Below, piece by piece: positions 4,987 through 30,395 of a stretch of 32,000 nucleotides of DNA; position 1 is the stretch's first letter, and each line of letters begins with the position of its first letter. The position numbers were made by a program, and so were the translations under genes. Source of the DNA: Vulcanisaeta distributa DSM 14429. Its GTDB lineage: Archaea > Thermoproteota > Thermoprotei > Thermoproteales > Thermocladiaceae. The notes beneath the pieces are model-generated. The model saw only the letters and a list, made by a program, of their open reading frames with translations, searched no databases and was not told the DNA's origin. The stretch lies in NCBI RefSeq assembly GCF_000148385.1, contig NC_014537.1:1080001-1112000 (forward strand), given 5' to 3'.

Positions 4987-5506
4987 GAAGATTTCAATAG
5001 AATATTGAAAGATGTTGAGTGCACCTAACTCCCTGAGTAATTTAATCGCCTCGCTTGTATTGGAAGATTTCAATAGAATATTGAAAGTTCATTATCGAAA
5101 TGCCATAATCTTCCGAATCCTGCTATTTGAGAGAAGATTTCAATAGAATATTGAAAGATTATCATTGATATTAGGTTTCCGTCTCTTTCGATGCTCTCGA
5201 TTTCGTAGAAGATTTCAATAGAATATTGAAAGTAATGAGACGTGAACCTGTTTGGGGGGATAATGATGGAGTTGAAGATTTCAATAGAATATTGAAAGCC
5301 GTTGCAAAACCTTCCTCCAGTGTTATGAACCGCGAAACACCAGAAGATTTCAATAGAATATTGAAAGAATAGGTCGTGCGGGCTTAATGACGTGAGTATT
5401 AGTGCGTGCGAAGATTTCAATAGAATATTAAAAGTGTGGACCCATTGATTAATGTCTGCTCAGCTATTTTGTTGCAATACTGAAGATTTTAATAGAATAT
5501 TGGGGA
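4987..5506 (+). CRISPR. CRISPR array 1: 8 repeats, 7 spacers (41-51 nt), repeat GAAGATTTCAATAGAATATTGAAAG
   Basis: Repeats start at 4987, 5063, 5133, 5208, 5274, 5343, 5410 (G21A) and 5482 (5 mismatches). The plus orientation is set by the 3' ATTGAAAG tag, the leader and A/T box on the left, and repeat decay on the right. Confidence 0.97.
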
Positions 5507-6728: not shown

Positions 6729-7462
6729 GAAGATTTCAATAGAATATTGAAAGTCTTCCTAAGAAGCAGTGCCACGCCGGTTGGCAAGTAGCTGTATGAG
6801 AGAAGATTTCAATAGAATATTGAAAGACTGTATGTTTATCTGCACGCCACCACCCTGCTGAGTACAGAGGAAGATTTCAATAGAATATTGAAAGTCCTCA
6901 ACTCCTTACCGCTGGCGTTGGGGAACATCACCCTAAGCAACGGAAGATTTCAATAGAATATTGAAAGTGGATTTCGCCATAGTCGCCAGGCACCATTGGC
7001 GCTATCACCTCCTCGAAGATTTCAATAGAATATTGAAAGGTGACGCCACTGAGCGGGGTCGTTAAGCCACTCCACACCATGGTCTTTAAGATTTCAATAG
7101 AATATTGAAAGTTGAGTTCAGCGCTGAACGCCTTATCTCGATTTTAATGGACATCGTGGGAAGATTTCAATAGGATATTGAAAGGGGGACCCGATTGGGC
7201 TTGGGCACGCAATGTACTCCTCGAGAAGATTTCAATAGAATATTGAAAGACTTCCCGGGCATGGAGTCGGTCATCGCGAGGGAACTGCCCGAGGAAGATT
7301 TCAATAGAATATTGAAAGATTAGGATCGGTAGTAGGGACACCACGATAGACGGCTCACTAAGTGAAGATTTCAATAGAGTATTGAAAGGTCTTTGTCGTG
7401 AAGTGAAGGTCAGTCTTTTACCATCACCTCACGCTATGAAGATTTCATTGAATATTAATAAG
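6729..7462 (+). CRISPR. CRISPR array 2: 11 repeats, 10 spacers (40-49 nt), same repeat
   Basis: Repeats start at 6729, 6802, 6870, 6943, 7015, 7087 (G1T), 7160 (A15G), 7225, 7294, 7364 (A16G) and 7438 (degenerate). Confidence 0.97.
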
Positions 7463-7671: not shown

Positions 7672-8994
7672 TTATTTTAGGCATTTTAGTACTTCATCAT
7701 CTATTGCTATGCAGTAGTCATCATCGCATTTCACAATCTTTGTGCAGTTCTTTAGTAACCCAGCATGGGCAATGAAGTTCCTCATATCCTCCTTACCCAC
7801 GCATTTACATTGGCGGGGGAAGCCCTCATGACACATGGGTAGTATGATGTCTGAGTAATAATTGTCATAAACCCTCAAGCCCAGGTTCACAGCCTTAGAA
7901 ATCGCATTGTACATGTCGTTCAATTCATCCTGAATTACGACCCTGGCAACATCACTAAGTTTATCAATCAATCTATGATTCATTAAGTCCCTGAGTTTTA
8001 TCACACCTCCTCTACCCACTGCCTGTCTGAACACGTTATCCCCACACAGCACCTCCTCAATAAGTTTTGAATACACGTTGTATGGCTTTATATCGCCTTT
8101 ATGTTCGTACTTGACCTTCCTCTCCCCATGATTTATCTCGGCGTCTACCTGAAAATTAATGTGATTCTCACGGCATGCACCGTTCCTACTTAGTACCTTT
8201 GGTATTACTGCCAATGCTCCGTAGGACAGTGCCTTAACGACTTCATCAGTTACCTCCTGAGGTAATACCAGTTGCCTCATATTTTCGTAGATTAACTTGA
8301 TCACCTCAAAACTACCTGGCAGCGCATTGTACACCCTTATGAAAACCTCACCCGCGCCCTTTATCAGGGCTAGTGTGGCTATGTACCTGGTCATTTGATA
8401 CGTGAGCGTTGGCATGAAGTTTATGCCGTGGGTAACGTCTAGGAATAAGTATAAACGCTCATCATCCGTAATTAAGTCCTTAATACTATTCCAAAGCCCA
8501 ACGAGCAACTCACTGGCTATTAAATCTGGGCTATTCCCACCCGCGAACTCCCAATCACCTAATCGACCCCTGAGTGATGTCACCACAACCCTTACATTAC
8601 GAGTATCACCCAGTAATTCCCTGACGATACACTCAATGTAGCCCTTCACTAAATCGCGCCACCCACTTAAATCGCCTACCCTGCTTGGCGGAGCCAACTT
8701 ACTGCATTCATTATTAGCGCATAGTGAGTATTTCCTGGCGCACTCGACAGCCTTTGGATTTTGCTGTCCTGCCGATGCGGTTATTACGCTATCGAGCACG
8801 TAGATTACGTAAATATCAGCATTACTCATGCACTTGATTGAGGAATACGTATCCCTACACTCCCTCTCCCTTGAACCACATAAGTCCTCATCAGTGCATT
8901 TGTAGGAAACGGCTCTCCACTCCAGCGGGTTCCCCCACGTCGCTATGTAAACCCTCTTCACGCCGCCCATCACTAAGTCACCCGATAAGCCCAA
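7672..8994 (-). CDS. csx1: Csx1-family CARF + HEPN ribonuclease (DxTHG family)
   Basis: It has an N-terminal CARF beta1 (KRVYIATWGNPLEW), the DxTHG motif (LDVTHGINFMP) and a C-terminal HEPN R-x4-H motif (MRNFIAHAG). An alternative start is ATG 8970 (MGGVKRVY). Confidence 0.8.
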   Translation of the reverse strand: MGLSGDLVMGGVKRVYIATWGNPLEWRAVSYKCTDEDLCGSRERECRDTYSSIKCMSNADIYVIYVLDSVITASAGQQNPKAVECARKYSLCANNECSKLAPPSRVGDLSGWRDLVKGYIECIVRELLGDTRNVRVVVTSLRGRLGDWEFAGGNSPDLIASELLVGLWNSIKDLITDDERLYLFLDVTHGINFMPTLTYQMTRYIATLALIKGAGEVFIRVYNALPGSFEVIKLIYENMRQLVLPQEVTDEVVKALSYGALAVIPKVLSRNGACRENHINFQVDAEINHGERKVKYEHKGDIKPYNVYSKLIEEVLCGDNVFRQAVGRGGVIKLRDLMNHRLIDKLSDVARVVIQDELNDMYNAISKAVNLGLRVYDNYYSDIILPMCHEGFPRQCKCVGKEDMRNFIAHAGLLKNCTKIVKCDDDYCIAIDDEVLKCLK

Positions 8995-9859
8995 CCAACC
9001 TCCTGAACCACTCTCTAACCTCTACCTCACCATTCCTAATGTCTATCACACCACTCTCCCTAAGGTCCTCAGGGTCTAGACCGACTGACCTAAGCTCATC
9101 CAGTGTCGGTCTCCCGCTCAATGCCTTTACATACTTGCTGTCCAGGGTTATTGGTAGTATTGGTAGTTCCACGACCTCCCTAAACGTCTCGTGGGCATAG
9201 ACCACCCTCCAAGCCCCAGCGAGTATGGCAACAACCGTTAGGTACGCTGACTCGGGCTTGAAACCACCCGTTGGGTTCACAACGACCTTATAACCATCCC
9301 TCCTCAACCTCACTATGTTGCTCACGAACCTATCCATCAAGTCCGTAAGCCCCTCCCTAAACCACTCAACGCCCCTACCGAAGCCCTTTAGGACAATTGG
9401 CTCATCAATGATTAGTGCGGAATACGCAGGTATGCCTATCAAGCCCCTGAAGTCTTCCTGAAACCTCCTTAAGTACTCCGTTATGGCCCTTGCGCAGAAC
9501 CTGGAGGTCCCCGTGTCCGTTGGGTAGAACTGAAGTCTCAACTCGCTGATAACGTGTCTTGCGGGTAACGACTTGATAAAGGCAATTATGGAATTAAGCT
9601 CTGCACTGAAGCCAGCCGGGTCCTTGCTCAATGCCTTAACCGCGTCCTCGAGGACCTCACCACCCTTGGCAGACCACTCCTCGAACGACCTCTGCAGCTC
9701 ATCATCAACGGGTAACCTACTGGGTGGTTTAGCCCTATTTCCGAAGACCTCCCTAGACCTCAGGGTTAGTTTGTCGATGTTTCTCTCGAGGTTTCCAAGG
9801 AGGCTTGTGCCCACGGTGGATAATACCGCGATTCTAAGGGGCATACTATGAGTATGCAC
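8978..9859 (-). CDS. CARF-domain protein, APE2256/SSO1393-like family (candidate ring nuclease or regulator) with a small C-terminal helical tail
   Basis: Motifs present are LSTVGTSLLGN, SAELNSI, FYPTDTGTS and VVNPTGGFKPES. It is a paralogue of the gene at 21763-22551. The likely start is ATG 9844 (MPLRIAVL), about 25-30 nt from the A/T box AATACTTAAAACG (rc of 9868-9880). Confidence 0.65.
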   Translation of the reverse strand: MHTHSMPLRIAVLSTVGTSLLGNLERNIDKLTLRSREVFGNRAKPPSRLPVDDELQRSFEEWSAKGGEVLEDAVKALSKDPAGFSAELNSIIAFIKSLPARHVISELRLQFYPTDTGTSRFCARAITEYLRRFQEDFRGLIGIPAYSALIIDEPIVLKGFGRGVEWFREGLTDLMDRFVSNIVRLRRDGYKVVVNPTGGFKPESAYLTVVAILAGAWRVVYAHETFREVVELPILPITLDSKYVKALSGRPTLDELRSVGLDPEDLRESGVIDIRNGEVEVREWFRRLVGLIG

Positions 9860-9903: not shown

Positions 9904-11214
9904 CTATGCCGGATTTATTTGTTGGTTCAGTATTTTCGTGAATGCGTATAGCTGGATTATTGCGTGATACAGCTCTGGGCTCTTTGGCTCTGGTACTTTG
10001 AGTCTGTCCTTGGTTATTAATTCGGAATTCAGTCCATACCTCTGCCATAGCTCATGCGCCCTCCTATCCATGGTCAATAACTTCTTACCACTTAACGCTA
10101 CCCTATCCGTGGTTGGTAATACTACATCGCACTCGTAAGGTGCCGTTGGCACGTACGCGGCATTCAGCCTCAATTGCTCGAAGGCAAGCTCCACGGCCTT
10201 TGCAAGTACGGGTCCACAGTCACGCTTCTTCTGGGTCGCTGCGTGGAGTACCTCCACCTGGACGCAGTACGGTATCTCCACCTTGACCGGCAGGTTATGT
10301 ATACCATGGTATACCATGTTTGTATCGATTACGTAGTCCCCATCCTCAAGATCCATAACTCTAAAACCAAAGAAGTCAATTAACTGATCTACATCATCAT
10401 AATCCCTATCACTTGCGCAGTTAAATATTGCCTCAATGAGTTTCCTTACCCTATCTACGTCCACAGTTTCGTCGCTGCTCACATCACGACTATAGGTTGG
10501 GTTAGTCCTTAACCTAATGCTTTCAACGAGGGTATCATCAATTAATAGCCTTAATTCACCTTTACTTAGTTCCAGCCTTAAACTATTGGGCTTCACGTTG
10601 CCGTCCGCGTATACGTGAGGTGTTGAAACTAAGGTATTTATTAGGCAGGAGATTCGGGCGACCTCCCTCTTTAGGTTCGAGTTTAATATATTTATGTTAA
10701 GGGCATCACCTCTAAATGTATCGACGAATTTATCGCAATTCTCAATCAACGTTTTTAGCGCCTCATTAGGAGGCTTATTATTTACCTTCACATTACCGAA
10801 CAACTGAACCCACTGTAGCCACCTGGGTACTAATGGGTAGAATAGGTTTGTCCAGGGGCCGAATGGGAACATGATATGCATTATGGGGACTCCCTTCTGT
10901 GTTGCGAGCCTTGTCATGCATATTGCCATCCTAACAGACGCTGAAGATGGTATAACCACCGCATCGCCGTTAATCACCCCATTGAGATCCTCACAGCCCC
11001 TAAATAACAGCCTAACAGACCTAACGCCTCTCTCATTGAGTAGTTTTTCGATGAATTCGGCTGTGCGTTCTGCCCTTCTGAATCCTGAGTGGACGATGGT
11101 GACCTCAACGTCTGGCCCCAATAATTCATACGCCCTAAACACGGCTGATAAGGCCGATTCGGTGGTGTACGAAGGCGCGCCCACACCAATAATTAACCTC
11201 ATAGCAATAGGCAC
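9904..11214 (-). CDS. Csa3-like CARF/Rossmann N-domain fused to a C-terminal PIN nuclease domain
   Basis: The N-terminus, RLIIGVGAPS...DVEVTIVHSGFRRAERTAEFIEKLL...DAVVIPSSASVRMAICMTRLA, parallels the csa3 CARF layout (VVIAITGGVRAFSAV). The C-terminus has PIN acidic motifs YVIDTNMVYHG, VQVEVLHA, YECDVVLPTTD and KKLLTMDRRAHE. An A/T box (rc of about 11226-11240, GTAAAAATTAAG) lies upstream. Confidence 0.55.
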   Translation of the reverse strand: MPIAMRLIIGVGAPSYTTESALSAVFRAYELLGPDVEVTIVHSGFRRAERTAEFIEKLLNERGVRSVRLLFRGCEDLNGVINGDAVVIPSSASVRMAICMTRLATQKGVPIMHIMFPFGPWTNLFYPLVPRWLQWVQLFGNVKVNNKPPNEALKTLIENCDKFVDTFRGDALNINILNSNLKREVARISCLINTLVSTPHVYADGNVKPNSLRLELSKGELRLLIDDTLVESIRLRTNPTYSRDVSSDETVDVDRVRKLIEAIFNCASDRDYDDVDQLIDFFGFRVMDLEDGDYVIDTNMVYHGIHNLPVKVEIPYCVQVEVLHAATQKKRDCGPVLAKAVELAFEQLRLNAAYVPTAPYECDVVLPTTDRVALSGKKLLTMDRRAHELWQRYGLNSELITKDRLKVPEPKSPELYHAIIQLYAFTKILNQQINPA

Positions 11215-11368
11215 ATAAACCCATACTTAATTTTTACCTCCAACGAGCAAAGCAATGATTGCCCCTCCTTACACCTTAATTAGGGCGGCGTGTATTCAGT
11301 TGAAGGGCGTGGTATGAGGGTTTCAATGGTGTATCTTGACGGGATCGGTATTGTCGGGTCTGAGGTAA

Positions 11369-11797
11369 GTGTTAAGTTTATCCTCCGGTCCTTCCCACGT
11401 GTATTACCTCGTCTTGCCAAGTAGGTGCGGTGGTTCCTTGGCCACCGAGCACTTTGCCTTTAGGCCCGTGGAGTTTGGGGATTTCGCCTACGCATTCATT
11501 AGCGCCTTTAATGAGTGCGGCACCTTGCCTATGCTTCATATAGCCGGTGTCGGTAGGTTTATCATTAGTAGGGACCTGGGTGTTAGACTACTGGTTTGGC
11601 TTGGTGGGCAGGGGCATGCTAGGTTTAAGTTGCCTAACCTCTCAACTTTAACCCACCTAATTCCCCTCGCCAGGAGGATTAAGTGTAGTTTAGGCGTCTG
11701 CGACTTCTACGGTGACTTGACTCTCCTCGACCTGGCTAGGTTTAGGCATAGGTTACCCATTGAGTATAGGGTGTTACCAACCGGCCCCACCCTCTGA
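11369..11797 (+). CDS. Hypothetical ORF (GTG start) in a 560-nt gap, possibly not a gene
   Basis: It is the only ORF in the gap between two minus-strand operons. It has no recognisable motifs and an atypical composition (very few K/E/D). It overlaps the cas10 3' end by 24 nt. Confidence 0.2.
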   Translation: MLSLSSGPSHVYYLVLPSRCGGSLATEHFAFRPVEFGDFAYAFISAFNECGTLPMLHIAGVGRFIISRDLGVRLLVWLGGQGHARFKLPNLSTLTHLIPLARRIKCSLGVCDFYGDLTLLDLARFRHRLPIEYRVLPTGPTL

Positions 11798-14044
11798 TCT
11801 AGTCTTGAGCACGTATATGTTTATGCTGGCTATCGCCCTCCCCAATACCCTTAGGTACTGCCCTGCACGGCCCTCATTGCCACACTCGACGCTCTTCAGC
11901 ATATTCGCCAGGTTTTCCGGCGTTAATTCACGCCCCAGCTCATTGATTACCTGCGAGACTGTGTCCCTATTTCTATTAAAGTAGTAGGTGTACTCGATTA
12001 AGGCTCGGAGAAGACTCCTTTTAGCGCTTAGGCAATCAGCATTACTGGGTGCCGTCCCTGAATTCTTCTTTTCCTCTTTCAGCACCGCTACTTTATAGAG
12101 TGCGTCGTAGATTTTGACGAGGTGGCTATTTAATCTGTAAAGCATGGATACACCCCTCTCGCGGGTCTCCTCAAGCTCCGCATAGTCATGCTTCCTCGAT
12201 ACGTAATCGACGATGTTTAATACATCACTCGGTTCCAGCATTACCGGGGCCCCGCCGATGTTGATTACATACATTAGCGACGCGTTCCTATTCTTCCTCT
12301 TAGCCTCCTCTAGCCTATTCTCAGTATCTAGCCACACGAGGTAGATTGGTTGATAGACGTCGTGAATCAGCGCGCCGGCGGCGACGTTTATAGAGAATTC
12401 ATTGGCCCTCATGATTAGCCGCGCCATGTAGTCCAGGGCCATGTGGTCGCCAACCACCACCACATCATCACCCCCACTGTATATGAGGAATACGCTGCCG
12501 CCGTACCTAGACTGGTTACTGTTGAGTAGGTAGGCACCGTACGCGTCGAACATGGTCATTAACAGGTTCGTGAATAGTATATACGTGGCCGCGTCCCTCG
12601 AGGCGCTGGCCTTAATCCTACCCATTGAGTTTGCGTCAGCCTTAACAGTTATGGCCATGCCACCCATTTTAATCTCCTCAAGGTCCATAACCTCACCTGT
12701 CGTAGGCTCGGTGGGCATTAGCGTGTTTAGGAAAATGACCGAGTGCGCCACGTCGCTTTTAGGCTCAATCCCGAATTCATTAAGGTGGTAGTGGACGTAC
12801 TCGCTACTGAAGGCGGGGTTAACCCCATCGGGGCATATGGCGTAGTCCACGCCAAGCAGCCTGGCGACCACGCAGCCGCCCCTACTGTAGCTACTGGTCC
12901 TCAACCTCGCTATGAATCCAAGCCTCCTACTCACGGTACCTATCTTGTGGGCCATGCAGCAGAGGTGGCACATTGTTAACGTGGTGCCGTCGGGCATCTT
13001 CACGCTGGTTAAATTCTCAGACGCCATGCCGCACATGTCGCACAGCCCCACCCCGTTAATGACAACCCTCCTGTACCTACCGTACCTCCGCCTGGTGAGC
13101 TCCCTCTCCAATTCATCAACAGCCCCGCGGAACCCTTCATCAACGCCATGCACCCTCGTGTAGGCTATGGCTAAGCCTAGCCTACCTTCAAACTCGTTAA
13201 CCACATCAGACTCCACGCCACTTACAACCTCACTCAGGACCCCATCCTCAACACCCGGTATCAGCATTATGACCTCGCCACCCGTGTTCACCAGTATGTT
13301 CACTGGGCTGAGTACGTCAGCCTTAAGGGCATTGTTAACGTCGTTAATTATCCTAACGGCCGCGGCCTGTTGAATAAGATTTATGAGGATGGACCTACCC
13401 TTTAACTGCCTCATTGCCTGCTTAGTCCTCTGAATCCTACCAATCACGTCCTGTATACCCACGACATCGATACCCAGGAGCTTATAGTTGCCGCCAGTAG
13501 CCTCAGTGGAGGCGTAGGCCATGGCCGCGTGGGCGGTTGAGTAGGCTGAGTAGCGGCTACCACCCTCACAGTTAGAGTATGGGACATAGAGTAGGGTCAG
13601 CTTCATCGTAGCCAGTAGGGTTTCCATAAACTGCTGGTAGTCCACATGCAGGGCGGCTAGGGCATCAATACCCCTGTCCAGTTCATTAACGACGTCTCGG
13701 TAACTCCCCCTAGCCTTAACACCATCTTTAACCACGTCCAGCATTGAGGCCGGCCCGATGGTTAATGCGCCACCCCCTATGAAGTCTATCACGACCCCCG
13801 CATCGCCTTGACACTCCTGACCCGGCTCTATACTCTTACCCACGGCGTAGCTGATGTAGCGCATCACGGAGCCTTCCCTGATGAGCCGCTCAACGTTACC
13901 TACATTAATGCCCAGGCCGGTTAACGGGTCCTTAAGCTTGTTAAGGTAGTGGATGGCGTTATCGACGTCTGAGCCTCCATGTACCCTACGCCTAACTCTA
14001 CCCATTACGTAGAGGGCCGTGGCTATTACCGCCTCCCTACTCAC
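11774..14044 (-). CDS. cas10: Cas10 (Csm1-like large subunit), cyclase-competent, no recognisable HD motif
   Basis: It has the GIDVVGIQDVIGRIQRTKQAMRQLKGRS block, the Cys cluster CDMCG...MCHLCC, and the GGDD motif (FLIYSGGDDVVVVGD). The first 185 aa or so contain no HD dipeptide. Confidence 0.9.
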   Translation of the reverse strand: MSREAVIATALYVMGRVRRRVHGGSDVDNAIHYLNKLKDPLTGLGINVGNVERLIREGSVMRYISYAVGKSIEPGQECQGDAGVVIDFIGGGALTIGPASMLDVVKDGVKARGSYRDVVNELDRGIDALAALHVDYQQFMETLLATMKLTLLYVPYSNCEGGSRYSAYSTAHAAMAYASTEATGGNYKLLGIDVVGIQDVIGRIQRTKQAMRQLKGRSILINLIQQAAAVRIINDVNNALKADVLSPVNILVNTGGEVIMLIPGVEDGVLSEVVSGVESDVVNEFEGRLGLAIAYTRVHGVDEGFRGAVDELERELTRRRYGRYRRVVINGVGLCDMCGMASENLTSVKMPDGTTLTMCHLCCMAHKIGTVSRRLGFIARLRTSSYSRGGCVVARLLGVDYAICPDGVNPAFSSEYVHYHLNEFGIEPKSDVAHSVIFLNTLMPTEPTTGEVMDLEEIKMGGMAITVKADANSMGRIKASASRDAATYILFTNLLMTMFDAYGAYLLNSNQSRYGGSVFLIYSGGDDVVVVGDHMALDYMARLIMRANEFSINVAAGALIHDVYQPIYLVWLDTENRLEEAKRKNRNASLMYVINIGGAPVMLEPSDVLNIVDYVSRKHDYAELEETRERGVSMLYRLNSHLVKIYDALYKVAVLKEEKKNSGTAPSNADCLSAKRSLLRALIEYTYYFNRNRDTVSQVINELGRELTPENLANMLKSVECGNEGRAGQYLRVLGRAIASINIYVLKTRSEGGAGW

Positions 14045-15074
14045 CCTGCCTCACCTCGATGCAAACCCACCCGATCGGTTCATTACCGGCCAGCCTAACC
14101 GTGGCGTCTCCCCATGGCCTATTGAGCCTGCTACTTACATAGTCCGTGATTCTGGAGACTAGGTCTGGGCTATACTTCTCAAGTAGGTTAATCACGGTCT
14201 TCCACCTCCTGCTCGCGCCAAACCCAACCCTCACTGGTACACCACCCCCACATTCAGGTACCTTAAGGCCCCTCCTCCCCTCGAAGGATGAGACCTCGCG
14301 GCTAAACTCCTTAATAGCATTGACTATATCGTCGTAGTTCAGTAACCTAGCCTTAACATCCTCGGTAACGGGGGGATGCCTTATAGCCACCTCGTACTCA
14401 AGCCTAACGCCGGGCCTTAGGCCAATCGCCATAACCCTATACTTATCCTCCCTATCATGGATGCAGTAGACTCCGTAGTCATCCGGCCTAGGTTTAGTTA
14501 ACTGCCTAACCGCCAGGTCCTTGAATAGGCGGTATGGCGCCTTGAGCCTCTCCTCACCGTGAATCCTCTCCATAACCACCGTCAATACGTCATCCTCAGC
14601 CTCAGGGGAGACCATGTTTAACCTAGGCCTCTCAGCCAGCTTCTCTGAAACGGCCCTGGTGAAGCTTTCCCTAAGCTGGGCATCTCTAGCCAATAGCCAA
14701 TACAGGTAGGCGGTCCTGATCAGGCCCTTAACCTCACTTGGCGGTATCCCCTCAGGGCTATGGTCAAGAACCTCAACACCCCCACAGTTGGTTACTATTG
14801 CGTAGCTCCTCACGGAGTACCTCTCAGGCGCCTTCGACATGGTGTTCATTAGGGCGTTTAACAACTGCCCATAGTCCATCGACTTAACGTTAACCAGCTG
14901 CTCGATGGGTAGTTTAGTTAAGTCAATTACGTAAAGCCTACCGCCGCTGGCCACGGCGTCTAAACCTATGCTTAACCTACCTCCACTCAGCACGAAGGTA
15001 GGCGTCTTAACATTGATAACGAGCCTCATACCACAACCACAGTGGGTCAAGCCTCTTAACGCAGTTGGGTCCAT
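14037..15074 (-). CDS. csm5: Csm5-like RAMP (Cas7-group)
   Basis: Motifs present are VKTPTFVLSGG, IPPSEVKGLIRTAYLYWLL (compare IPGSSIKGALRT) and VRVGFGASRRWKT. The probable start is ATG 15029 (MRLVINV). Confidence 0.65.
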   Translation of the reverse strand: MDPTALRGLTHCGCGMRLVINVKTPTFVLSGGRLSIGLDAVASGGRLYVIDLTKLPIEQLVNVKSMDYGQLLNALMNTMSKAPERYSVRSYAIVTNCGGVEVLDHSPEGIPPSEVKGLIRTAYLYWLLARDAQLRESFTRAVSEKLAERPRLNMVSPEAEDDVLTVVMERIHGEERLKAPYRLFKDLAVRQLTKPRPDDYGVYCIHDREDKYRVMAIGLRPGVRLEYEVAIRHPPVTEDVKARLLNYDDIVNAIKEFSREVSSFEGRRGLKVPECGGGVPVRVGFGASRRWKTVINLLEKYSPDLVSRITDYVSSRLNRPWGDATVRLAGNEPIGWVCIEVRQGE

Positions 15075-15930
15075 TCAACGTTTCAAAATCCAGATACTCG
15101 GCACCAACCACTGAACCGTCGGTGATTACGGAGACTGGGCCCATGACGTAGAATGGGCTGCTGCACACCCAACCCCTAACCATAGTGTTCACGCAGCCGT
15201 AAACCTCCCGGCTACGCGGTAGAGCAGTGCCGAGCAGCAGCGCGTGGCTGCCGGAGTCCCTTAGACTGTCGATAGCATCGACTTTAACCACGGTGAAGTG
15301 CCCAAGCCCAATACTCCTCTCCCCACCGACACCAACCTTACCCAGTAGCTCAAGGGCCCGCCTGGCCTCATCCAGGGATGCCCCATCCCTAGTCGTGAAG
15401 TAGAGTACGTAATTGACGTGGGGTTGGAAGGCGGCCACCCTGTAGGTATCGGCATTGCTCAACACTCTACCAACAACATTCCTCTGAATACTTACACTAC
15501 TCCCATAGCTGCTCCTGTACGTGAATTCACGCCCCCCGCACCTAACCTTAAGGTCGTCATCAAGGAGGGGCTCCACGCTGGGTGCATTTAGGCAATCGAG
15601 TGGTAGATACTTCAGCTTCTTAACCCGCTTCAGGACGGCGTGGGCCCTACCGGGGTCGTCCGCGTACTTACTGGCTATTGACGAGAGTAGCTGAATCTTC
15701 AAATCCATGGGCATGGGCACGGTTAACGCAGCCTCTCCATCCACTTCAAAGGCCATTGGGTACATTGACGATGCCCTATCGATGCCGTGGCTAATGCCTA
15801 GGTGTCTTAGATTCTCCAGGGCCGAGTATACGGTATCCGATGGGACGTAGTCGAGGGTGTCCATCAGGCCAGTCCTACCAACCCTGAACGGCTCCTCAAA
15901 CCTAACCACCGCATAGTTGATCCTCATCAC
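15007..15930 (-). CDS. csm4: Csm4-like RAMP (Cas5-group)
   Basis: It has FEEPFRVGRTG...YVPSDTVYSALENL (the SDTLFSAL-type motif) and the C-terminal G-rich loop VGVGGERSIGLGHF. Confidence 0.7.
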   Translation of the reverse strand: MMRINYAVVRFEEPFRVGRTGLMDTLDYVPSDTVYSALENLRHLGISHGIDRASSMYPMAFEVDGEAALTVPMPMDLKIQLLSSIASKYADDPGRAHAVLKRVKKLKYLPLDCLNAPSVEPLLDDDLKVRCGGREFTYRSSYGSSVSIQRNVVGRVLSNADTYRVAAFQPHVNYVLYFTTRDGASLDEARRALELLGKVGVGGERSIGLGHFTVVKVDAIDSLRDSGSHALLLGTALPRSREVYGCVNTMVRGWVCSSPFYVMGPVSVITDGSVVGAEYLDFETLNGPNCVKRLDPLWLWYEARYQC

Positions 15931-16931
15931 GTCGCACCGCAGATGCTCCTCTTAATGGCGTCAAACACCTCTATCCTACCTATGAAATCCCTGAGCTTAG
16001 TCAATTCATCAAACGTGTCTATTTTACTCGGTGCAGGCTCGTTCATTGCCAGGTTGTGGAAATATAGTTCAATATCCTTAAACTTGATGCTTCCATAACC
16101 CCTGCTGCCTGACCCACCTATGTAAGTCTCCTCAACCAGCATCAGGGCCTCGACCAGTGACTGTAGGTAGAAGCGGGCTGGGTAATCCTTGATAAGGTCT
16201 TTCAACTTACTATGCTCATCACACTCTCTACGCCTACACACGTCGAGGTCAAATACCAGGAATGATATAGACCCCTCAAACTCAACATCAGGCTTAACCC
16301 TAAGTATAGTCCTCGGGTCGGCGGCGCTGGTAACCCTATCGATCCTATTCTCGCTCTTCTCCTCGAGGAAGTCCTCGAAGGTTATATTCCCGCAGCCGCC
16401 CTTCTCCCTGCATAGGTCACTGATGTAATCCTCCGATGGGTACATGTCCCTGAATATAGCCCTGGTCGGTGCCCAGCACTTCTCAACAAGCCATGTGTAT
16501 GGATTCTCACCCTCCTCACTGGGCTGGTAATACATCGGTTGAACGGACATGCTACCGAACACGTTATCAACGGGGCAGTATGGGTCATCGTGAATTATCT
16601 TATTACCCTCACCAACCCTCATGTGGTAATATATCTTACCATCCGTGGTACTTAAGCTAAGGCCCAGGGCAAGCTCAAGCAGTGACCTCGCCCTACCCTT
16701 AAGGGAACTGCCCGGTATGTAGGGGACCTTGATCTGGCAATCTTTATAATTCTTGCAATCTTTATAATAATACTGTTTATATATTGACACTGGCTCAACA
16801 TCAGCCGCGCCCATCACCTCCCTAGCCTTAAGGCTCCTAATCAGGAAGCCTGTCTTGTTAATCAGTTTAAACTTTAACTCGAAGATGCCGACCAGCCTCA
16901 ACTGCGGTGAGAGGTACTGCCTCACAGCCAC
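15927..16931 (-). CDS. csm3: Csm3 (Cas7 backbone RAMP)
   Basis: Motifs present are AADVEPV, VPYIPGSSLKGRARSLLE, NRIDRVTSAADPRTILRV and IGGSGSRGYGSIKF. Confidence 0.85.
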   Translation of the reverse strand: MAVRQYLSPQLRLVGIFELKFKLINKTGFLIRSLKAREVMGAADVEPVSIYKQYYYKDCKNYKDCQIKVPYIPGSSLKGRARSLLELALGLSLSTTDGKIYYHMRVGEGNKIIHDDPYCPVDNVFGSMSVQPMYYQPSEEGENPYTWLVEKCWAPTRAIFRDMYPSEDYISDLCREKGGCGNITFEDFLEEKSENRIDRVTSAADPRTILRVKPDVEFEGSISFLVFDLDVCRRRECDEHSKLKDLIKDYPARFYLQSLVEALMLVEETYIGGSGSRGYGSIKFKDIELYFHNLAMNEPAPSKIDTFDELTKLRDFIGRIEVFDAIKRSICGAT

Positions 16932-17344
16932 TCCTCCTCACCCCTCTTGATACCGTAAATGACGTACGCTAGGAATGCGTCGAGCGAATCCCTGAGGGTT
17001 TCGGCAAGCTTCCTGGCCTGCTGCGGATCCTTAGCATTCCTTATATCGTCAAGCGCCTGCTTAATCCCATTAGCCAAGTCTTCATCAATGACGCTTCGGT
17101 TCTTCTGATACTCAATAACCACGTTCAGTCTAAATAAGGCCCTTGAGTAATTCCTCAAATCGGCATCACTTGAGGATATTATCTTATCCAGGACCGGTAT
17201 AATCATGTTGTAGATCTTCCTAAAGGAGGCTGACGTAGTCCTATAAACCCTATAGCCAGCCAAGGTCCTTAACCCTGCATCATAGTCACCGTTCCTAAAG
17301 CTCTGAACCACATTAGAGTAGAAGCGAGAAGACCCGTACGGCAT
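16922..17344 (-). CDS. csm2: Csm2-like small subunit (Cas11)
   Basis: It is a 140-aa helical protein. TTSASFRKIYNMI resembles the Csm2 TSQLRKFY motif. It is the first gene of the csm operon. Confidence 0.6.
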   Translation of the reverse strand: MPYGSSRFYSNVVQSFRNGDYDAGLRTLAGYRVYRTTSASFRKIYNMIIPVLDKIISSSDADLRNYSRALFRLNVVIEYQKNRSVIDEDLANGIKQALDDIRNAKDPQQARKLAETLRDSLDAFLAYVIYGIKRGEEEWL

Positions 17345-17395
17345 TACTAAAAACTAGTAGAGAGAGGTTTAAAAATATTGCTCAGATCTATGGCT
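17345..17395. promoter_or_regulatory. Compact divergent promoter region with a single A/T element between csm2 and the ATPase gene
   Basis: GGTTTAAAAATATTG has its core at 17367-17376. That core is about 27 nt from csm2 ATG (17344) and about 25 nt from ATG 17396 on the other strand. Confidence 0.45.
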
Positions 17396-27185: not shown

Positions 27186-30100
27186 ATGCAGAACGTTGCC
27201 GAGAATTACTTCAGGATTAAGCTCTGGGTCTTAATGCACGACCCACCCAACAAGGCCTGGCTAATCATTAATAAATTAAATCACGTTGATGAGGCTAAGA
27301 GAATCTATGAGGAAATATTTAGGGGCACGGTCTTCGGCGGTGGCGTGCCGGACCTAAGCCATAGTAAGGTTGTGAAGTCCGATAGGCTTGCCTCATCCTT
27401 CGATAGGTGGGTCTTCCTCAAGCCCGCCACTTCGAACTACGTGTACAGGAGGTTAATGCTCGTAAACATATTCAACCCAAGGCATAAATACGAGGGAATA
27501 ACCCCGGACTATAACGCCATTGAGAATGAGGTTAATGAATATGTGAAAGACCTTAAGGAGGATATTTCAAGGTTGGTGAGGAATTATGGAAATGACCCCA
27601 GGGCCCTCTACAACTTCTTCTACGCAGCCTACGAGTCATACTGGGCAGCGCGCGGTTTACCACCGAGCCCCGCAGACACCAGGGCACCAACCCACGACGT
27701 GTTTGACCACGTCTACGCATCGGCAATGATATCCAACTGGGTCGATGATTATGGAAGGCTCGTTGGTGGCTACTACGTAATCGGTGACATACCCGGCGTT
27801 CAACACTTCATAGCATCCAGCAGGAGGTCTGGGGACCTGTGGGCGAGTAGTTGGGCGTTGTCGATGGCGGTCTGGTTAACGCTCTGGCCACTTATTTGGC
27901 GCTTTGGTCCGGACATACTGATTAGGCCCACGGCTAGGTTGAATCCGCTCTACTACGCATTCCTAGTGACGGCCCTAAGTCTCAGTGATGCAGATAGGTG
28001 TGACTCGTGCGCGGTGTTTAAGAAATTAATCCATGTACTTAATAAGAGTGAGAGGCTCGATGAGGGTTTAGAGGCTATACTCAATAGGTTGATGGGCGCC
28101 ATCAGCGCATTCCTCGTTGGAACGTCTAAGGAAGTTAATAGGTTGGAACTACTTAGTGACGCACTTCAGGTCGCATTCATAGGTGAATCCTTTCAATTAA
28201 TCTTACCAAGACACGCCCCGGAGGGTGTTGAACTAACTAAGGACTACATAATTAATGAGTTGAGGAGTAACTTTACTAAGGCGTTGGATTGCGTAGTTAA
28301 TGAGTCCTTCGAGTTCTTAAAGGCAGATAAGCAGGAGTCTATGGAGGTGAATGAACGGCAGTCTAAGTCTAATTATGAATTTGTAATTAAATTACTTGAG
28401 AGACTAAGGGATGAGAACTTAATCAAGCTTCAGCTACCCCTTAGGATTGGTGTATTGAGCGTTGGGCCGAACTCTAATGATGATGTTAAGGTTGATAACG
28501 TGCCATGCCCATTAAGCGACGATCTCCTGAAGAAACTAGGTATTAATGATGGTGAGTGCCGTGAGATGCTTCTCTTCGACTACCTAATGGTGAGTAACGA
28601 TGTTAAGAGGAAGTTACGTGATGAGGAGGGGCGTAGGCTACCCATGGCGGGTTCCTGGTTTGATAGGGACGGTTCGCCACTAATTAACCTAATCAAATAT
28701 ACGAGGGGTGGTAGCTGGATACCAAGCACATTAAACCCGGACGCACCAGCGGTGGTTAAGTTCGGCAAGGTCATAGACCTAAACGGTAACCTATGCTACG
28801 ATCCAGACACCTCCCGCGACTTAATCCAAATCCTAAACTTAAGTAACGTAGTGAACCAACTACCTAAGGTGAGTAACCAACCCGTAATCTGCGCATTGAG
28901 TGTTGACCAGTGGTTGAAAATTCTCGGGCCAGGCCAGGGCGACTTAGCCATGAAGATAGCCACGTTAGCAAGTACCTTCAAGCCAGGGGAAGCCCTAAGT
29001 CCAACAGACCTGGCCAAGAGGGTCATATACATGGGGTTAAGAAACGTGTTTAAACTTGGTTTTGAAAGCACGGAAGACGTCGCGGCCAGGTACCTCTACT
29101 CCATAAGAGACCTACTCAGTGGGGTCTTCAATACGGGCAATTGCGGGCAAGTACTCTATTACATTAATAAGGAGCCGCCCAGGGACATTGAAGACGTATG
29201 CGTAGGCGAAACCTGCGGAAACCCCGAGGCCATTAGGAAACTAACCGAGGACTGCCTTGATCAAGCTCTAAGTAACGTTAACCTAGTTAGGGATGTTTAC
29301 GGTAAGCTTGTTAATGAGTCCATAGTGGACGACGTATGCGGCGCTATTAATGATGGTGAAGCCAAGGTGGTGTGTATGACTAATATTGTTGGGAGGTTCC
29401 TGATGTTCCACTTCACGTACGCCATAGTGAGGGGTGATGGAGACTCAATCGGTGACATACATAATGGCATACTCCCTAACTACTTCAATGAGTTAAGGAA
29501 CCTCTATACAAACATGCTTAATGATAAAGGGAACGTTGATGGTGACGTTAAAGAGTTTAGCGATGATATTAATAAGCAAATCGACTTACTTAAGGAGATT
29601 GAGCAGTCCCCATACTTCACCGTTATTAAGAATGGTAAGAAGTTACAGAGGATCCCAGTATCACCTGCCTATAAATTTGCGATAACCAGGTCACTTACCG
29701 TGACCTCACTCAAAGCCCTCTACGCAGCCATGAGCATGAACGCCATGCCGATCTACATGGGCGGTGATGACGTGGCCGCGTTAGCGCCCATCGAGGCGGC
29801 GCTTAAGCTCGTTGGGAGTGCCAGGAGGATTTACTGGGGCTTGGATGGGGATGTCGCCTTCTTCCATAGGGCCGGCCAATACGTGGTACCTGCCCTGGCG
29901 GCCTACGGGCAGAGTTACTCGATCAGGTTCACGCACATTCTCGATATATTCTCCACGGAATACGTGGAGGCCGGCGAGGTCCTTGAGAAACACGCTAAGG
30001 AGACTAAGTGGGCGTCCTTCAATAAGGATTCCATGGTTGTAAGTAGTTCGAGGACTAGTGGGGTCTCGGTACTGCCAATTAGGCCGATTGATGGACGTAC

Positions 30101-30395
30101 GATTAGGGGTATTGAGGACTTGAGGAGGGTCATGAGTTACCTGTACTCAGGCCTACTAAGCACCACAACCCCCAATGACTTTGAAAGGTTTAAGGACGCC
30201 TACGATAAGGCTAAGGAGCAGGGTAAGGCTGGTTTAACGGAGGATATCGTTAGGCACGTTATCGGCAATAACACTAGGCTCGACTTAGTGATCGATGACT
30301 TAACGTCGCGCATGGTTGATGGTTTAAGGACGTATGGGTATGATTATGCAAGTAATTTAATAAACGTGATTAACATACTGAGGCGATTGCCATGA
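27186..30395 (+). CDS. cmr2: Cmr2 / Cas10 (type III-B large subunit) with HD-type N-terminus and GGDD cyclase motif
   Basis: Motifs present are VLMHDPPNKAW, ADTRAPTHDVFDHVYASA, AIVRGDGDSIGD and IYMGGDDVAALAP. Confidence 0.9.
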   Translation: MQNVAENYFRIKLWVLMHDPPNKAWLIINKLNHVDEAKRIYEEIFRGTVFGGGVPDLSHSKVVKSDRLASSFDRWVFLKPATSNYVYRRLMLVNIFNPRHKYEGITPDYNAIENEVNEYVKDLKEDISRLVRNYGNDPRALYNFFYAAYESYWAARGLPPSPADTRAPTHDVFDHVYASAMISNWVDDYGRLVGGYYVIGDIPGVQHFIASSRRSGDLWASSWALSMAVWLTLWPLIWRFGPDILIRPTARLNPLYYAFLVTALSLSDADRCDSCAVFKKLIHVLNKSERLDEGLEAILNRLMGAISAFLVGTSKEVNRLELLSDALQVAFIGESFQLILPRHAPEGVELTKDYIINELRSNFTKALDCVVNESFEFLKADKQESMEVNERQSKSNYEFVIKLLERLRDENLIKLQLPLRIGVLSVGPNSNDDVKVDNVPCPLSDDLLKKLGINDGECREMLLFDYLMVSNDVKRKLRDEEGRRLPMAGSWFDRDGSPLINLIKYTRGGSWIPSTLNPDAPAVVKFGKVIDLNGNLCYDPDTSRDLIQILNLSNVVNQLPKVSNQPVICALSVDQWLKILGPGQGDLAMKIATLASTFKPGEALSPTDLAKRVIYMGLRNVFKLGFESTEDVAARYLYSIRDLLSGVFNTGNCGQVLYYINKEPPRDIEDVCVGETCGNPEAIRKLTEDCLDQALSNVNLVRDVYGKLVNESIVDDVCGAINDGEAKVVCMTNIVGRFLMFHFTYAIVRGDGDSIGDIHNGILPNYFNELRNLYTNMLNDKGNVDGDVKEFSDDINKQIDLLKEIEQSPYFTVIKNGKKLQRIPVSPAYKFAITRSLTVTSLKALYAAMSMNAMPIYMGGDDVAALAPIEAALKLVGSARRIYWGLDGDVAFFHRAGQYVVPALAAYGQSYSIRFTHILDIFSTEYVEAGEVLEKHAKETKWASFNKDSMVVSSSRTSGVSVLPIRPIDGRTIRGIEDLRRVMSYLYSGLLSTTTPNDFERFKDAYDKAKEQGKAGLTEDIVRHVIGNNTRLDLVIDDLTSRMVDGLRTYGYDYASNLINVINILRRLP

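What the first reader, a model, noticed from the sequence alone, without database searches (positions are those of the whole stretch)
9904..11214. Csa3-like CARF domain fused to a PIN nuclease instead of an HTH
Seen: the N-terminal 130 aa or so follow the same beta-alpha layout as the csa3 CARF in this window. The equivalent of the TGGxR loop reads SSASVR. A middle domain of about 150 aa follows. The C-terminal domain has the four PIN acidic positions (YVIDTNMV, VQVEVL, YECDVVL, LLTMDRR). It is the first gene of a three-gene CARF operon with its own A/T box. Established: CARF domains sense cyclic oligoadenylates made by Cas10. CARF-PIN architectures have been catalogued computationally, but to my knowledge none has been characterised biochemically. 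Inference: a cOA-gated PIN RNase effector. Alternatively, given the altered ligand loop, it may be a sensor with different or lost ligand specificity.
Basis: partly seen in the sequence, partly recalled or inferred. Interest (0 to 1): 0.65.

Follow-up and report, generated by a model that had tools for sequence, protein, structure and literature searches.

The report
Known archaeal CARF-PIN CRISPR effector gene
This gene encodes a signal-sensing (CARF) domain fused to a PIN nuclease inside a type III CRISPR locus of a Vulcanisaeta-like archaeon; it is an ordinary member of an already catalogued archaeal family (CARF_m3 / Crf10-11) whose RNase activity and activating signal are still only predicted.

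Summary
Window 9904-11214 (-) is one intact ORF; the real start is probably the ATG at 11202 (432 aa). An AlphaFold2 model (pLDDT 92.6, pTM 0.93) has three domains: CARF (1-136), a family-specific middle domain (137-285) and PIN (286-432). Foldseek matches the first to Crn1, Csa3, Cam1 and Can1/2 CARFs and the last to PIN domains (AF0591, SMG6, VapC), all at probability 1.0. The four PIN acidic residues are invariant or nearly so across 82 relatives.

It is not new. All 82 relatives, this protein included, match the PADLOC profiles 'CARF_m3--CARF_PIN'. Makarova et al. [quoted passage not shown] The 'altered' SSASVR loop lies within normal family variation.

Some experimental data exist:
- Shah et al. 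2018 found that the S. tokodaii CARF-PIN ST0035 cross-links cA4 weakly, without induced RNase activity.
- The best full-length structural match is the PDB entry SiRe_0806, solved with cA4 bound.

Most likely function (about 0.55): a cA4-gated, metal-dependent RNase effector, encoded beside a Crn1-like ring nuclease and a Csx1. Caveat: about half of the sampled relatives lie outside cas loci. Interest is low to moderate.

The parts
9904..11202 (-). CARF-PIN gene (CARF_m3 / Crf10-11 family), 432 aa plus stop. The mechanical ORF extends to a GTG at 11214.
   Evidence: ORF list. N-termini of homologues. PADLOC PDLC01182 'CARF+PIN' E 3e-154, and PDLC01983/01984 'CARF_m3--CARF_PIN' E 6e-46 / 6e-34.
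11227..11236 (-). TATA-like A/T box TAAAAATTAA, preceded by a purine-rich GGAGG. It lies -34..-25 from the ATG at 11202, implying a leaderless or near-leaderless transcript.
   Evidence: Sequence. Similar boxes at the same spacing precede Csm2, the Cmr RAMP gene and the APE2256 gene. Promoter function is inferred.
10795..11202 (-). CARF domain, residues 1-136 (six beta strands alternating with helices).
   Evidence: AF2 model, pLDDT 89-97 here. Foldseek probability 1.0 to Crn1 Sso2081, Sis0455, Cdn1, Cam1 and Csa3. Can1, Card1 and Can2 appear only as lower-probability full-length alignments (0.96, 0.66, 0.63). The family HMM weakly aligns to the Can2 CARF, E 0.039.
10930..10947 (-). Loop after CARF strand beta4, SSASVR (residues 86-91): the CARF 'motif II' position.
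   Evidence: Family pattern [PVI]-[ST]-x-[GA]-[SGA]. It aligns to GGTK of Can2.
10822..10869 (-). Family signature loop FPFGPWTNLFYPLVPR (residues 112-127) between CARF strands beta5 and beta6. This is the most conserved stretch of the protein.
   Evidence: W117 and P123 are 82/82; F112 and Y122 are 81/82; P126 is 80/82; R127 is 74/82. Its role is unknown.
10348..10794 (-). Middle domain, residues 137-285 (helices plus a four-stranded sheet), with invariant N189.
   Evidence: AF2 models. The only PDB fold match covering it is SiRe_0806.
9907..10347 (-). PIN domain, residues 286-432. Catalytic codons: D293 (10324-10326), E317 (10252-10254), D359 (10126-10128), D379 (10066-10068). Near-invariant C313 (10264-10266) and C358 (10129-10131) lie beside them.
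   Evidence: Foldseek probability 1.0 to 3i8o, 1o4w (AF0591 PIN), 3ix7, SMG6, EST1A and VapC. Conservation counts.
8978..9859 (-). CARF7 / Cas_APE2256 protein, a Crn1-like predicted ring nuclease. The likely start is the ATG at 9844.
   Evidence: Pfam PF09651 E 2e-34. NCBIfam 'CRISPR system ring nuclease' E 5e-24, below its curated cutoff. PADLOC CARF7 E 1e-80.
7672..8994 (-). Csx1 (CARF9 + HEPN). The likely start is the ATG at 8970, 7 nt after the preceding stop.
   Evidence: Pfam Csx1_CARF and Csx1_HEPN. PADLOC CARF9--CARF_HEPN E 1e-161.
11774..14044 (-). Cas10/Csm1 with a GGDD cyclase motif at residue 524. It is the last gene of a Csm-type module (11774-17344) and a candidate source of the cOA signal.
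   Evidence: Csm5 at 14037-15074, Csm4 at 15007-15930, RAMP, Csm2.
27186..30395 (+). Second Cas10 (Cmr2 type) with GGDD at residue 859, next to Cmr3 and a divergent Cmr RAMP/Cmr5 operon. This is an alternative signal source.
11369..11797 (+). cas_RFas accessory gene on the opposite strand. It fills the apparent gap between cas10 and the CARF-PIN gene.
   Evidence: PADLOC PDLC01065 E 2e-46. The family is described by Shah et al. 2018.
6729..7388 (+). CRISPR array (10 repeats of GAAGATTTCAATAGAATATTGAAAG) directly downstream of the CARF gene trio.
   Evidence: 26 repeats in three arrays; 0 expected by chance.

Best explanation
The gene encodes a member of the archaea-specific CARF_m3 (Crf10/Crf11) family. 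It has an N-terminal CARF sensor, a family-specific middle domain and a C-terminal PIN nuclease.

Shown here: the three-domain fold, the complete and invariant PIN acidic tetrad, family membership, and the position inside a type III CRISPR island with two cyclase-competent Cas10 proteins.

Inferred mechanism:
1. The protein forms a CARF-mediated homodimer.
2. Target-RNA recognition by the Csm or Cmr complex makes Cas10 produce cyclic oligoadenylate. cA4 is the most likely species, because the two neighbours are a Crn1-type (cA4-cleaving) CARF7 protein and a Csx1.
3. The ligand binds the pocket at the CARF dimer interface.
4. The change is relayed through the middle domain and switches on the PIN domains.
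5. The PIN domains cleave single-stranded RNA in a Mg2+/Mn2+-dependent way, slowing host and virus.
6. The adjacent ring nuclease removes cA4 and resets the system.
For: - Fold. The AF2 model has pLDDT 92.6 and pTM 0.93.
- CARF domain. It matches known cOA-binding CARFs at probability 1.0. Generic Rossmann enzymes reach only 0.1-0.6, with about 19 A rmsd.
- PIN domain. In the model of residues 138-432 (middle domain plus PIN), it matches AF0591, SMG6, EST1A and VapC at probability 1.0, TM about 0.6.
- Catalytic residues. D293, E317 and D379 are invariant or near-invariant and D359 is D or E in 81/82 relatives. T294, N295 and T377 are also conserved. The four sit at the canonical PIN positions: after beta1, in the helix after beta2, after beta3 and after beta4.
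- Family. All 82 relatives match the CARF_m3--CARF_PIN profiles. Makarova et al. 2025 list the family as sensor plus effector with a predicted PIN RNase.
- Context. The gene lies among Csm and Cmr modules, three CRISPR arrays, a CARF7 protein and a Csx1, and both Cas10 proteins have GGDD. The trio is conserved in two other Vulcanisaeta assemblies. Relatives in Sulfurisphaera and Acidianus manzaensis also lie in cas islands.
- cA4 link. SiRe_0806, the best full-length structural match, was crystallised with cA4. ST0035 cross-links cA4.
Against: - No activity has been measured for any member. The one published test (ST0035 with cA4) showed weak binding and no induced RNase.
- About half of the sampled relatives have no cas genes or arrays within 10 kb, or have housekeeping genes as immediate neighbours.
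- No Pfam CARF or PIN model and no PDB sequence matches, so both fold assignments rest on a predicted structure and on profile labels.
- The classical basic residue of CARF motif II is shifted by one position.
- The dimer and its pocket could not be modelled.
- I could not see the domain annotation or any paper for SiRe_0806. Its C-terminal domain being PIN is inferred from the Foldseek alignment only.
Confidence: 0.55

Rival explanations
1. The protein is a ligand-gated PIN RNase, but the ligand is not cA4. It could be another ring size, or a non-cOA molecule such as RNA ends (as for the divergent CARF of RtcR). The family would then be a general stress or defence RNase that is only sometimes recruited to CRISPR loci.
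For: - ST0035 was not activated by cA4.
- Loci L014 and L015 lack cas genes and arrays within 10 kb. L001, L004, L005 and L007 have housekeeping genes as immediate neighbours and no CRISPR arrays within 10 kb.
- The most conserved element is the unusual beta5-beta6 loop rather than the classical CARF motifs.
- A different CARF+PIN family (Crf6) is described as typically not CRISPR-associated.
Against: - CARF genes that act in trans from distant loci are known, for example the ring nucleases Sso2081 and Sis0455 (my own knowledge).
- In this window the gene is embedded among cA4-type partners.
- The best structural relative binds cA4.
Confidence: 0.22
2. The protein binds cOA without being switched on by it. 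It would act as a buffer or sponge, or be a constitutive or negatively regulated RNase (for example in RNA processing) whose activity cOA dampens or redirects.
For: ST0035 bound cA4 weakly with no 'additional' RNase activity induced. The wording suggests some basal activity.
Against: All characterised CARF-nuclease fusions (Csx1/Csm6, Can1/2, Card1, Cami1) are activated by ligand (established knowledge; summarised). A constitutive PIN toxin with no antitoxin would be costly to the cell.
Confidence: 0.1
3. The PIN domain acts on something other than bulk RNA: DNA flaps or structures (FEN-like), a specific tRNA or rRNA site (VapC-like), or the cOA itself (a new kind of ring nuclease).
For: The PIN-like superfamily includes DNA flap nucleases and highly specific VapC tRNases. 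One structural hit is the PIN-like N-domain of the archaeal Holliday-junction ATPase (5f4h).
Against: The top matches are VapC/SMG6-type RNase PINs. A dedicated ring nuclease candidate is already encoded next door. The family is annotated as sensor/effector, not ring nuclease.
Confidence: 0.1
4. The gene is a decaying or non-functional remnant.
For: Database relatives from two Vulcanisaeta drafts are truncated (P0001-P0003). The csa3 gene in the same window is frameshifted.
Against: - The ORF here is intact and full length.
- All conserved residues are present.
- The truncations come from error-ridden drafts in which cas10, csx1 and the cmr genes are fragmented as well.
Confidence: 0.03

Closest known systems
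CARF_m3 clade of Makarova et al. 2020, renamed Crf10/Crf11 in Makarova et al. 2025 (Nat Microbiol, Suppl. Table 2)
   Same: Same architecture (CARF+PIN), archaea-only distribution and full-length profile matches. The window protein is a member.
   Different: Nothing detectable. Which of Crf10 or Crf11 it belongs to could not be decided. It scores higher on PDLC01983 than on PDLC01984.
ST0035, the CARF-PIN protein of Sulfurisphaera (Sulfolobus) tokodaii tested by Shah et al. 2018
   Same: Same annotated architecture. A Sulfurisphaera ohwakuensis protein (P0099), possibly its orthologue, is a family member inside a Cmr/Csx1 island.
   Different: Only about 22% identical to the window protein (via P0099). 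It bound cA4 weakly and was not activated. That P0099 is the orthologue of ST0035 is my assumption.
SiRe_0806 of Sulfolobus islandicus, PDB 9JXW (apo) and 9JXX (with cA4), released July 2025
   Same: Best structural match over the whole length (about 470 columns, TM 0.39-0.47, E 3e-6), and again for the middle+PIN part alone (245-268 columns, TMq about 0.40). It binds cA4.
   Different: 10-16% identity. No HMM or phmmer link to the family. Large rmsd (7-11 A) indicates different domain orientation. No paper or domain annotation was available to me.
Csx1 / Csm6 (CARF + HEPN RNases)
   Same: CARF sensor fused to an RNase, encoded with type III systems, and activated by cA4 or cA6. A Csx1 lies two genes downstream.
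   Different: The effector domain is HEPN (metal-independent, R-X4-6-H), not PIN (metal-dependent acidic tetrad). No Pfam HEPN match here.
Cami1 (CARF7 + RelE) and Can1/Can2/Card1 (CARF4 + PD-(D/E)xK)
   Same: The same logic of a CARF domain gating an unrelated nuclease. Can1 (probability 0.96) and Card1/Can2 (about 0.65) appear only as weak full-length Foldseek matches. The one domain-level link is the weak HMM alignment to the Can2 CARF (E 0.039).
   Different: Different CARF clades and different effector folds.
Stand-alone PIN nucleases (VapC toxins, AF0591, SMG6/EST1A PIN)
   Same: Same fold and the same four acidic positions.
   Different: There is no antitoxin partner. Control is presumably by the fused CARF and middle domains. 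Two near-invariant cysteines flank the active site.
Crf6 (CARF_m1, CARF+PIN) and the CRISPR-associated NYN ribonuclease
   Same: PIN-like nucleases linked to CARF domains or to type III loci.
   Different: Crf6 is a separate CARF clade that is typically not CRISPR-associated. NYN has no CARF domain.

Membership tests
CARF superfamily | Rossmann-like fold with a six-stranded sheet, resembling solved CARF domains more than generic Rossmann enzymes | tested here: met
   AF2 model. Foldseek probability 1.0 to Crn1, Sis0455, Cdn1, Cam1 and Csa3, against probability 0.1-0.6 and about 19 A rmsd for epimerases and glycosyltransferases.
CARF superfamily | Conserved small or polar motif after strand beta4 (such as TGGxK, GGTK, DxTHG) | tested here: met
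   P-S-S-A-S-V-R. The family pattern is [PVI]-[ST]-x-[GA]-[SGA], followed by R in 46/82. It aligns to GGTK of Can2. The basic residue is shifted by one position in the query.
CARF superfamily | Homodimer with a ligand pocket on the two-fold axis; binding of a cyclic oligoadenylate | not testable with these tools
   Only monomer prediction was available and no model coordinates are returned. Indirect support: SiRe_0806 was crystallised with cA4 and ST0035 cross-links it weakly.
CARF superfamily | Match to curated sequence models of CARF domains | tested here: inconclusive
   No Pfam or NCBIfam CARF model hits. The PADLOC CARF_m3 profiles hit strongly.
PIN-like nuclease superfamily | Alpha/beta/alpha fold like solved PIN domains | tested here: met
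   Foldseek probability 1.0, TM(target) 0.48-0.61 to 3i8o, 1o4w, 3ix7, 2hwx, 2dok and 5k8j.
PIN-like nuclease superfamily | Four conserved acidic residues at the ends of strands 1-4 or the following helices, plus the T/S-x-D signature | tested here: met
   D293 82/82; E317 82/82; D359 D in 72 and E in 9 of 82; D379 81/82; T377 78/82. Positions relative to the strands come from the model. Inter-residue distances could not be measured because no coordinates are returned.
PIN-like nuclease superfamily | Match to curated PIN sequence models | tested here: not met
   No Pfam PIN family at E <= 1. hhalign against a canonical PIN aligns only the DTN motif, at probability 0.6%.
PIN-like nuclease superfamily | Metal-dependent nuclease activity | not testable with these tools
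   Needs biochemistry.
CARF_m3 / Crf10-Crf11 (CARF+PIN, archaea-specific) | Full-length match to the family profiles | tested here: met
   PDLC01983 E 6e-46 (residues 4-393) and PDLC01984 E 6e-34 (residues 1-391). 82/82 relatives match both.
CARF_m3 / Crf10-Crf11 (CARF+PIN, archaea-specific) | Restricted to archaea | tested here: met
   Every named relative is from Thermoproteota: Vulcanisaeta, Pyrobaculum, Thermofilaceae, Infirmifilum, Acidianus, Sulfurisphaera, Hyperthermus.
CARF_m3 / Crf10-Crf11 (CARF+PIN, archaea-specific) | Association with type III CRISPR-Cas loci | tested here: inconclusive
   Met for the window and for L006, L010, L008 and L013, and suggestive for L003. Not met within 10 kb for L014 and L015. 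L001, L004, L005 and L007 have housekeeping genes as immediate neighbours and no CRISPR arrays.
   No Csa3, CasR or CARF3 profile among the PADLOC hits and no HTH in Pfam. Csa3 structures rank only 32nd and 50th among the fold matches.
Crn1-type ring nuclease (CARF7) | CARF7 profile match and catalytic Ser/Lys | tested here: not met
   The CARF domain resembles Crn1 structurally (TM target about 0.5), but no CARF7 profile hits. Catalytic residues were not mapped.

The most novel reading that the evidence does not exclude
CARF_m3 proteins may not be simple cA4-activated effectors. They could be a lineage of crenarchaeal RNases with their own sensing logic. Three observations leave this open:
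- Their most conserved feature is an aromatic and proline-rich loop (F-x-F-G-P-W-x-G-L-x-Y-P-x-V-P-R) between CARF strands 5 and 6, not the classical ligand motifs.
- Two near-invariant cysteines (C313, C358) sit beside the PIN catalytic E317 and D359. They could form a disulfide or metal switch.
- Roughly half of the genes sampled lie among housekeeping genes.

The ligand could be something other than cA4, and activity could also depend on redox state. That would explain why ST0035 was not activated by cA4.
Probability: 0.15. Interest if true: 0.6.

Novelty: already known. Interest (0 to 1): 0.3.

Why it matters
CARF-PIN proteins are among the few sensor-effector classes of type III CRISPR signalling that are still annotated only as 'predicted RNase'. 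This locus is a clean natural test case. It holds an intact CARF-PIN gene with its own promoter-like box, flanked by a predicted ring nuclease, a Csx1, two cyclase-competent Cas10 complexes and CRISPR arrays. The high-confidence model gives clear mutagenesis targets (D293, E317, D359, D379; W117, Y122, R127; C313, C358). The finding does not reveal a new kind of system, because the family, its architecture and its presumed role are already in the literature and in defence-finder profile sets.

Tried and rejected
Searches that gave nothing useful:
- Pfam and NCBIfam scans gave no meaningful hit. The only one was a spurious sub-threshold FwdD match at 19.6 bits against a cutoff of 175.
- Five sequence or profile searches of the PDB (query, P0099, P0020, alignments A2 and A4) found nothing except a weak match to the Can2 CARF. 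SiRe_0806 therefore cannot be linked by sequence.
- The second homologue search, using an alignment, was limited by its candidate cap and returned only 5 proteins.
- hhalign of the family against a single canonical PIN and against the neighbouring CARF7 protein was uninformative.
- Literature searches for SiRe_0806, 9JXX/9JXW, Crf10/Crf11 and CARF-PIN characterisation found no biochemical paper. Makarova 2020 is not held.
- The BFVD viral fold search gave no full-length relative.
- Scanning 99 neighbour ORFs at once with PADLOC showed only Cas3-type and assorted hits and could not resolve individual loci.

Readings rejected:
- Csa3-like regulator: no HTH and no CARF3 match.
- HEPN effector: no HEPN match.
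- Pseudogene: the ORF is intact, and the truncated database relatives come from frameshift-ridden drafts.
- GTG 11214 as the start: it lies within about 12 nt of where a transcript from the TATA-like box should begin, and homologues start at the MR(L/V)I position.
Full report
**The thing itself.** Homologues begin at the equivalent of its fifth residue: MRLIIGVG here, against MRVIVGVG and MGRAVVGVG. A TATA-like box, TAAAAATTAA (11236-11227), preceded by GGAGG, lies -34..-25 from the ATG at 11202. The first genes of the Csm and Cmr operons have similar boxes at the same spacing. I therefore take 9904-11202 (432 aa) as the gene and number residues from that ATG. Promoter function is inferred from what is established about leaderless crenarchaeal transcripts.

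**Sequence-level identification.** Pfam and NCBIfam give nothing usable, and the PDB has no sequence relative. PADLOC-DB, however, matches 'CARF+PIN' (PDLC01182, E 3e-154) and, over the full length, two 'CARF_m3--CARF_PIN' profiles (E 6e-46 and 6e-34).

An exhaustive HMMER search of 1.84 billion representatives found 93 clusters at E <= 1e-3. Most are 410-540 aa and match at both ends. All 82 near-full-length relatives I aligned match both CARF_m3 profiles. Named members all come from Thermoproteota: Vulcanisaeta, Pyrobaculum, Thermofilaceae, Infirmifilum, Acidianus, Sulfurisphaera and Hyperthermus. All are annotated as hypothetical.

**Fold.** An AlphaFold2 model built on a 46-sequence alignment is very confident (pLDDT 92.6, pTM 0.93). 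It has three domains:
- Residues 1-136 form a six-strand beta-alpha domain.
- Residues 137-285 form a helical domain with a four-stranded sheet.
- Residues 286-432 form an alpha/beta/alpha domain.

Foldseek against the PDB matches the first domain to CARF domains of cOA-binding proteins at probability 1.0: Crn1/Sso2081, Sis0455, Cdn1, Cam1 and Csa3. Can1, Card1 and Can2 appear as lower-probability full-length alignments. Generic Rossmann enzymes appear only at low probability, with rmsd near 19 A.

A second model of residues 138-432 (pLDDT 86.9) puts PIN domains on top, all at probability 1.0: MJ 3i8o, AF0591 1o4w, 3ix7, SMG6, EST1A and VapC. I could not measure active-site distances or model the dimer pocket, because coordinates are not returned.

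**Conservation.** The 82-sequence alignment has 18% mean column identity.
- PIN acidic residues: D293 is 82/82, E317 is 82/82, D359 is D in 72 and E in 9, and D379 is 81/82. T294, N295 and T377 are also conserved. The four sit where canonical PIN residues sit relative to strands 1-4.
- CARF motif after strand 4: the family pattern is [PVI]-[ST]-x-[GA]-[SGA], followed by Arg in 46 of 82. The query reads P-S-S-A-S-V-R, with the Arg one position later. The family HMM aligns this motif to GGTK of Can2 (E 0.039). The 'altered loop' is ordinary for the family.
- Unexpected features: the most conserved stretch is the loop F112-R127, with W117 and P123 invariant. N189 in the middle domain is invariant. 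Two cysteines, C313 and C358, adjacent to E317 and D359, are present in 77 and 76 of 82.

**Surroundings.** The window is a CRISPR-Cas super-locus. In order:
- Csa1 and Cas6.
- Three arrays with one 25-nt repeat (26 copies; none expected by chance).
- Csx1 (7672-8994).
- A CARF7/APE2256 protein that resembles ring nucleases (8978-9859).
- The CARF-PIN gene.
- A plus-strand cas_RFas gene (11369-11797).
- A Csm-type module ending in a Cas10 with GGDD (11774-17344).
- A RecF-like ATPase, a second cas_RFas, NurA and HerA.
- A second CARF7 gene.
- A Cmr module with a second GGDD Cas10.

The gap before the CARF7 gene has its own TATA-like box. Csx1 follows 7 nt after the CARF7 stop and has none. The 'three-gene operon' is therefore more likely one gene plus a two-gene unit. 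The trio is conserved in V. distributa JCM 11216 (L006) and in assembly GCA_001316145.1 (L010). The latter is syntenic with the window. Both drafts are full of frameshifts, which explains the truncated database relatives P0001-P0003.

**Family context elsewhere.**
- Inside cas islands: Sulfurisphaera ohwakuensis (Cmr, Csx1, Cas4/1/2) and Acidianus manzaensis (Cas6 adjacent, Csx1 7 kb away).
- Suggestive: a Thermoproteales contig (L003) with an APE2256 homologue 1.5 kb downstream.
- No link detected: Acidianus sp. HS-5 (L014) and L015 show no cas genes within 10 kb. The Pyrobaculum, Infirmifilum and Thermofilaceae loci have ABC-ATPase, NAD-synthesis, subtilase, epimerase or nitroreductase genes as immediate neighbours.
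- None of the loci without a detected cas link has a CRISPR array within 10 kb.

The link to CRISPR is therefore facultative at the level of gene neighbourhood. Trans-acting CARF genes are known, so this does not refute cOA signalling. It does keep a CRISPR-independent role open.

**What is known.**
- Shah et al. 2018 list a 'CARF+PIN' accessory cluster (Msed_1167). [quoted passage not shown]
- Makarova et al. [quoted passage not shown] They separate these from Crf6 (CARF_m1 + PIN), which is typically not CRISPR-associated.
- The best full-length structural match to my model is SiRe_0806 of S. islandicus (9JXW apo, 9JXX with cA4; released July 2025). It matches at E 3e-6, TM 0.39-0.47, and again over 245-268 columns with the middle+PIN model. 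No sequence method links it to the family, and I found no paper on it.
- No paper in the held library reports RNase activity of a CARF-PIN protein.

**Mechanism.** Shown: the architecture, the intact catalytic tetrad, family membership, and the type III context with cyclase-competent Cas10s. Inferred: a CARF homodimer senses cOA made by Cas10, binding is relayed through the middle domain, and the PIN domains cleave RNA with divalent metal. cA4 is the likely ligand, given the Crn1-type and Csx1 neighbours and the cA4-bound structural relative. The adjacent CARF7 protein would clear the signal. I put this at about 0.55. The rivals are:
- a different ligand or a CRISPR-independent role (0.22);
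- binding without activation (0.10);
- a different substrate (0.10);
- a dead gene (0.03).

**Verdict.** I rate novelty as 'already known' and interest at 0.3. The remaining value is as a well-defined candidate for the first biochemical demonstration of CARF-PIN activity. The unexplained conserved loop and cysteine pair are side leads.

Noticed in passing
window 3246-3396 and 3432-4049 (+): The csa3 gene appears split. A 50-aa N-terminal CARF piece (MPKLYVIPLGF...SEKA) ends at a TAA at 3394-3396. The 205-aa ORF, in another frame, matches Csa3 profiles only from profile position 62 onward. The two frames overlap at 3387-3393, so a single-base frameshift (pseudogene or sequencing error) would explain it.
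   Followed up: partly
window 11369-11797 (+), 17378-18466 (+), 18463-18924 (+): Two cas_RFas accessory genes (PADLOC E 2e-46 and 1e-42) are present. One is adjacent to a RecF/SMC-like AAA ATPase. The other runs convergent with cas10 and overlaps its 3' end by 24 nt. These families (Shah 2018 clusters 17, 83 and 84) have no known function.
   Followed up: partly
window 18989-21791 (+): A NurA-HerA nuclease-helicase pair sits inside the type III island, between the Csm and Cmr modules. Shah 2018 lists NurA as co-evolving with type III.
   Followed up: no
window 10264-10266 and 10129-10131 (-); alignment A4: Two cysteines, C313 and C358, lie next to the PIN catalytic E317 and D359 and are conserved in 77/82 and 76/82 family members. 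They could form a disulfide or a metal or redox switch. The distance could not be measured.
   Followed up: partly
window 10822-10869 (-); alignment A4: The loop FPFGPWTNLFYPLVPR between CARF strands 5 and 6 is the most conserved part of the whole family (W117 and P123 invariant), more so than the classical CARF motifs. Its role is unknown.
   Followed up: partly
loci L001, L004, L005, L007, L014, L015: Roughly half of the sampled CARF_m3 genes have no cas genes or CRISPR arrays within 10 kb, or are flanked by housekeeping genes (ABC ATPase, NadA/QPRT, subtilase, epimerase, nitroreductase).
   Followed up: partly
L002 9189-10007 and L003 527-1342: In two Thermoproteaceae/Thermoproteales MAG contigs, the gene overlapping the start of the CARF-PIN gene encodes a DUF3782 coiled-coil plus PD-(D/E)XK_10 nuclease protein containing 84-nt tandem repeats. 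It may be an operon partner.
   Followed up: no
window 4987-5434, 6729-7388, 22760-23349 (+): Three CRISPR arrays share the same 25-nt repeat, GAAGATTTCAATAGAATATTGAAAG, in the same orientation (7, 10 and 9 copies).
   Followed up: yes
window 21763-22551 (-): A second CARF7/APE2256 gene (PADLOC CARF7 E 2e-60) lies between HerA and the third CRISPR array. The island therefore encodes two predicted ring-nuclease-like proteins.
   Followed up: no
window 30-136 (-): The Rfam tRNA match spans 107 nt for a 71-position model, which suggests an intron-containing archaeal tRNA.
   Followed up: no
window 1887-1995 (+), inside ORF 1810-2214: A 33-nt tandem repeat (3.3 copies, 69% matches) lies within a 134-aa ORF that has only weak coiled-coil-like PADLOC hits.
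   Followed up: no
loci L006 and L010: The draft assemblies of V. distributa JCM 11216 and GCA_001316145.1 have cas10, csx1, cmr and the CARF-PIN gene broken into several ORFs. The short database proteins P0001-P0003 are assembly artefacts, not natural truncations.
   Followed up: yes
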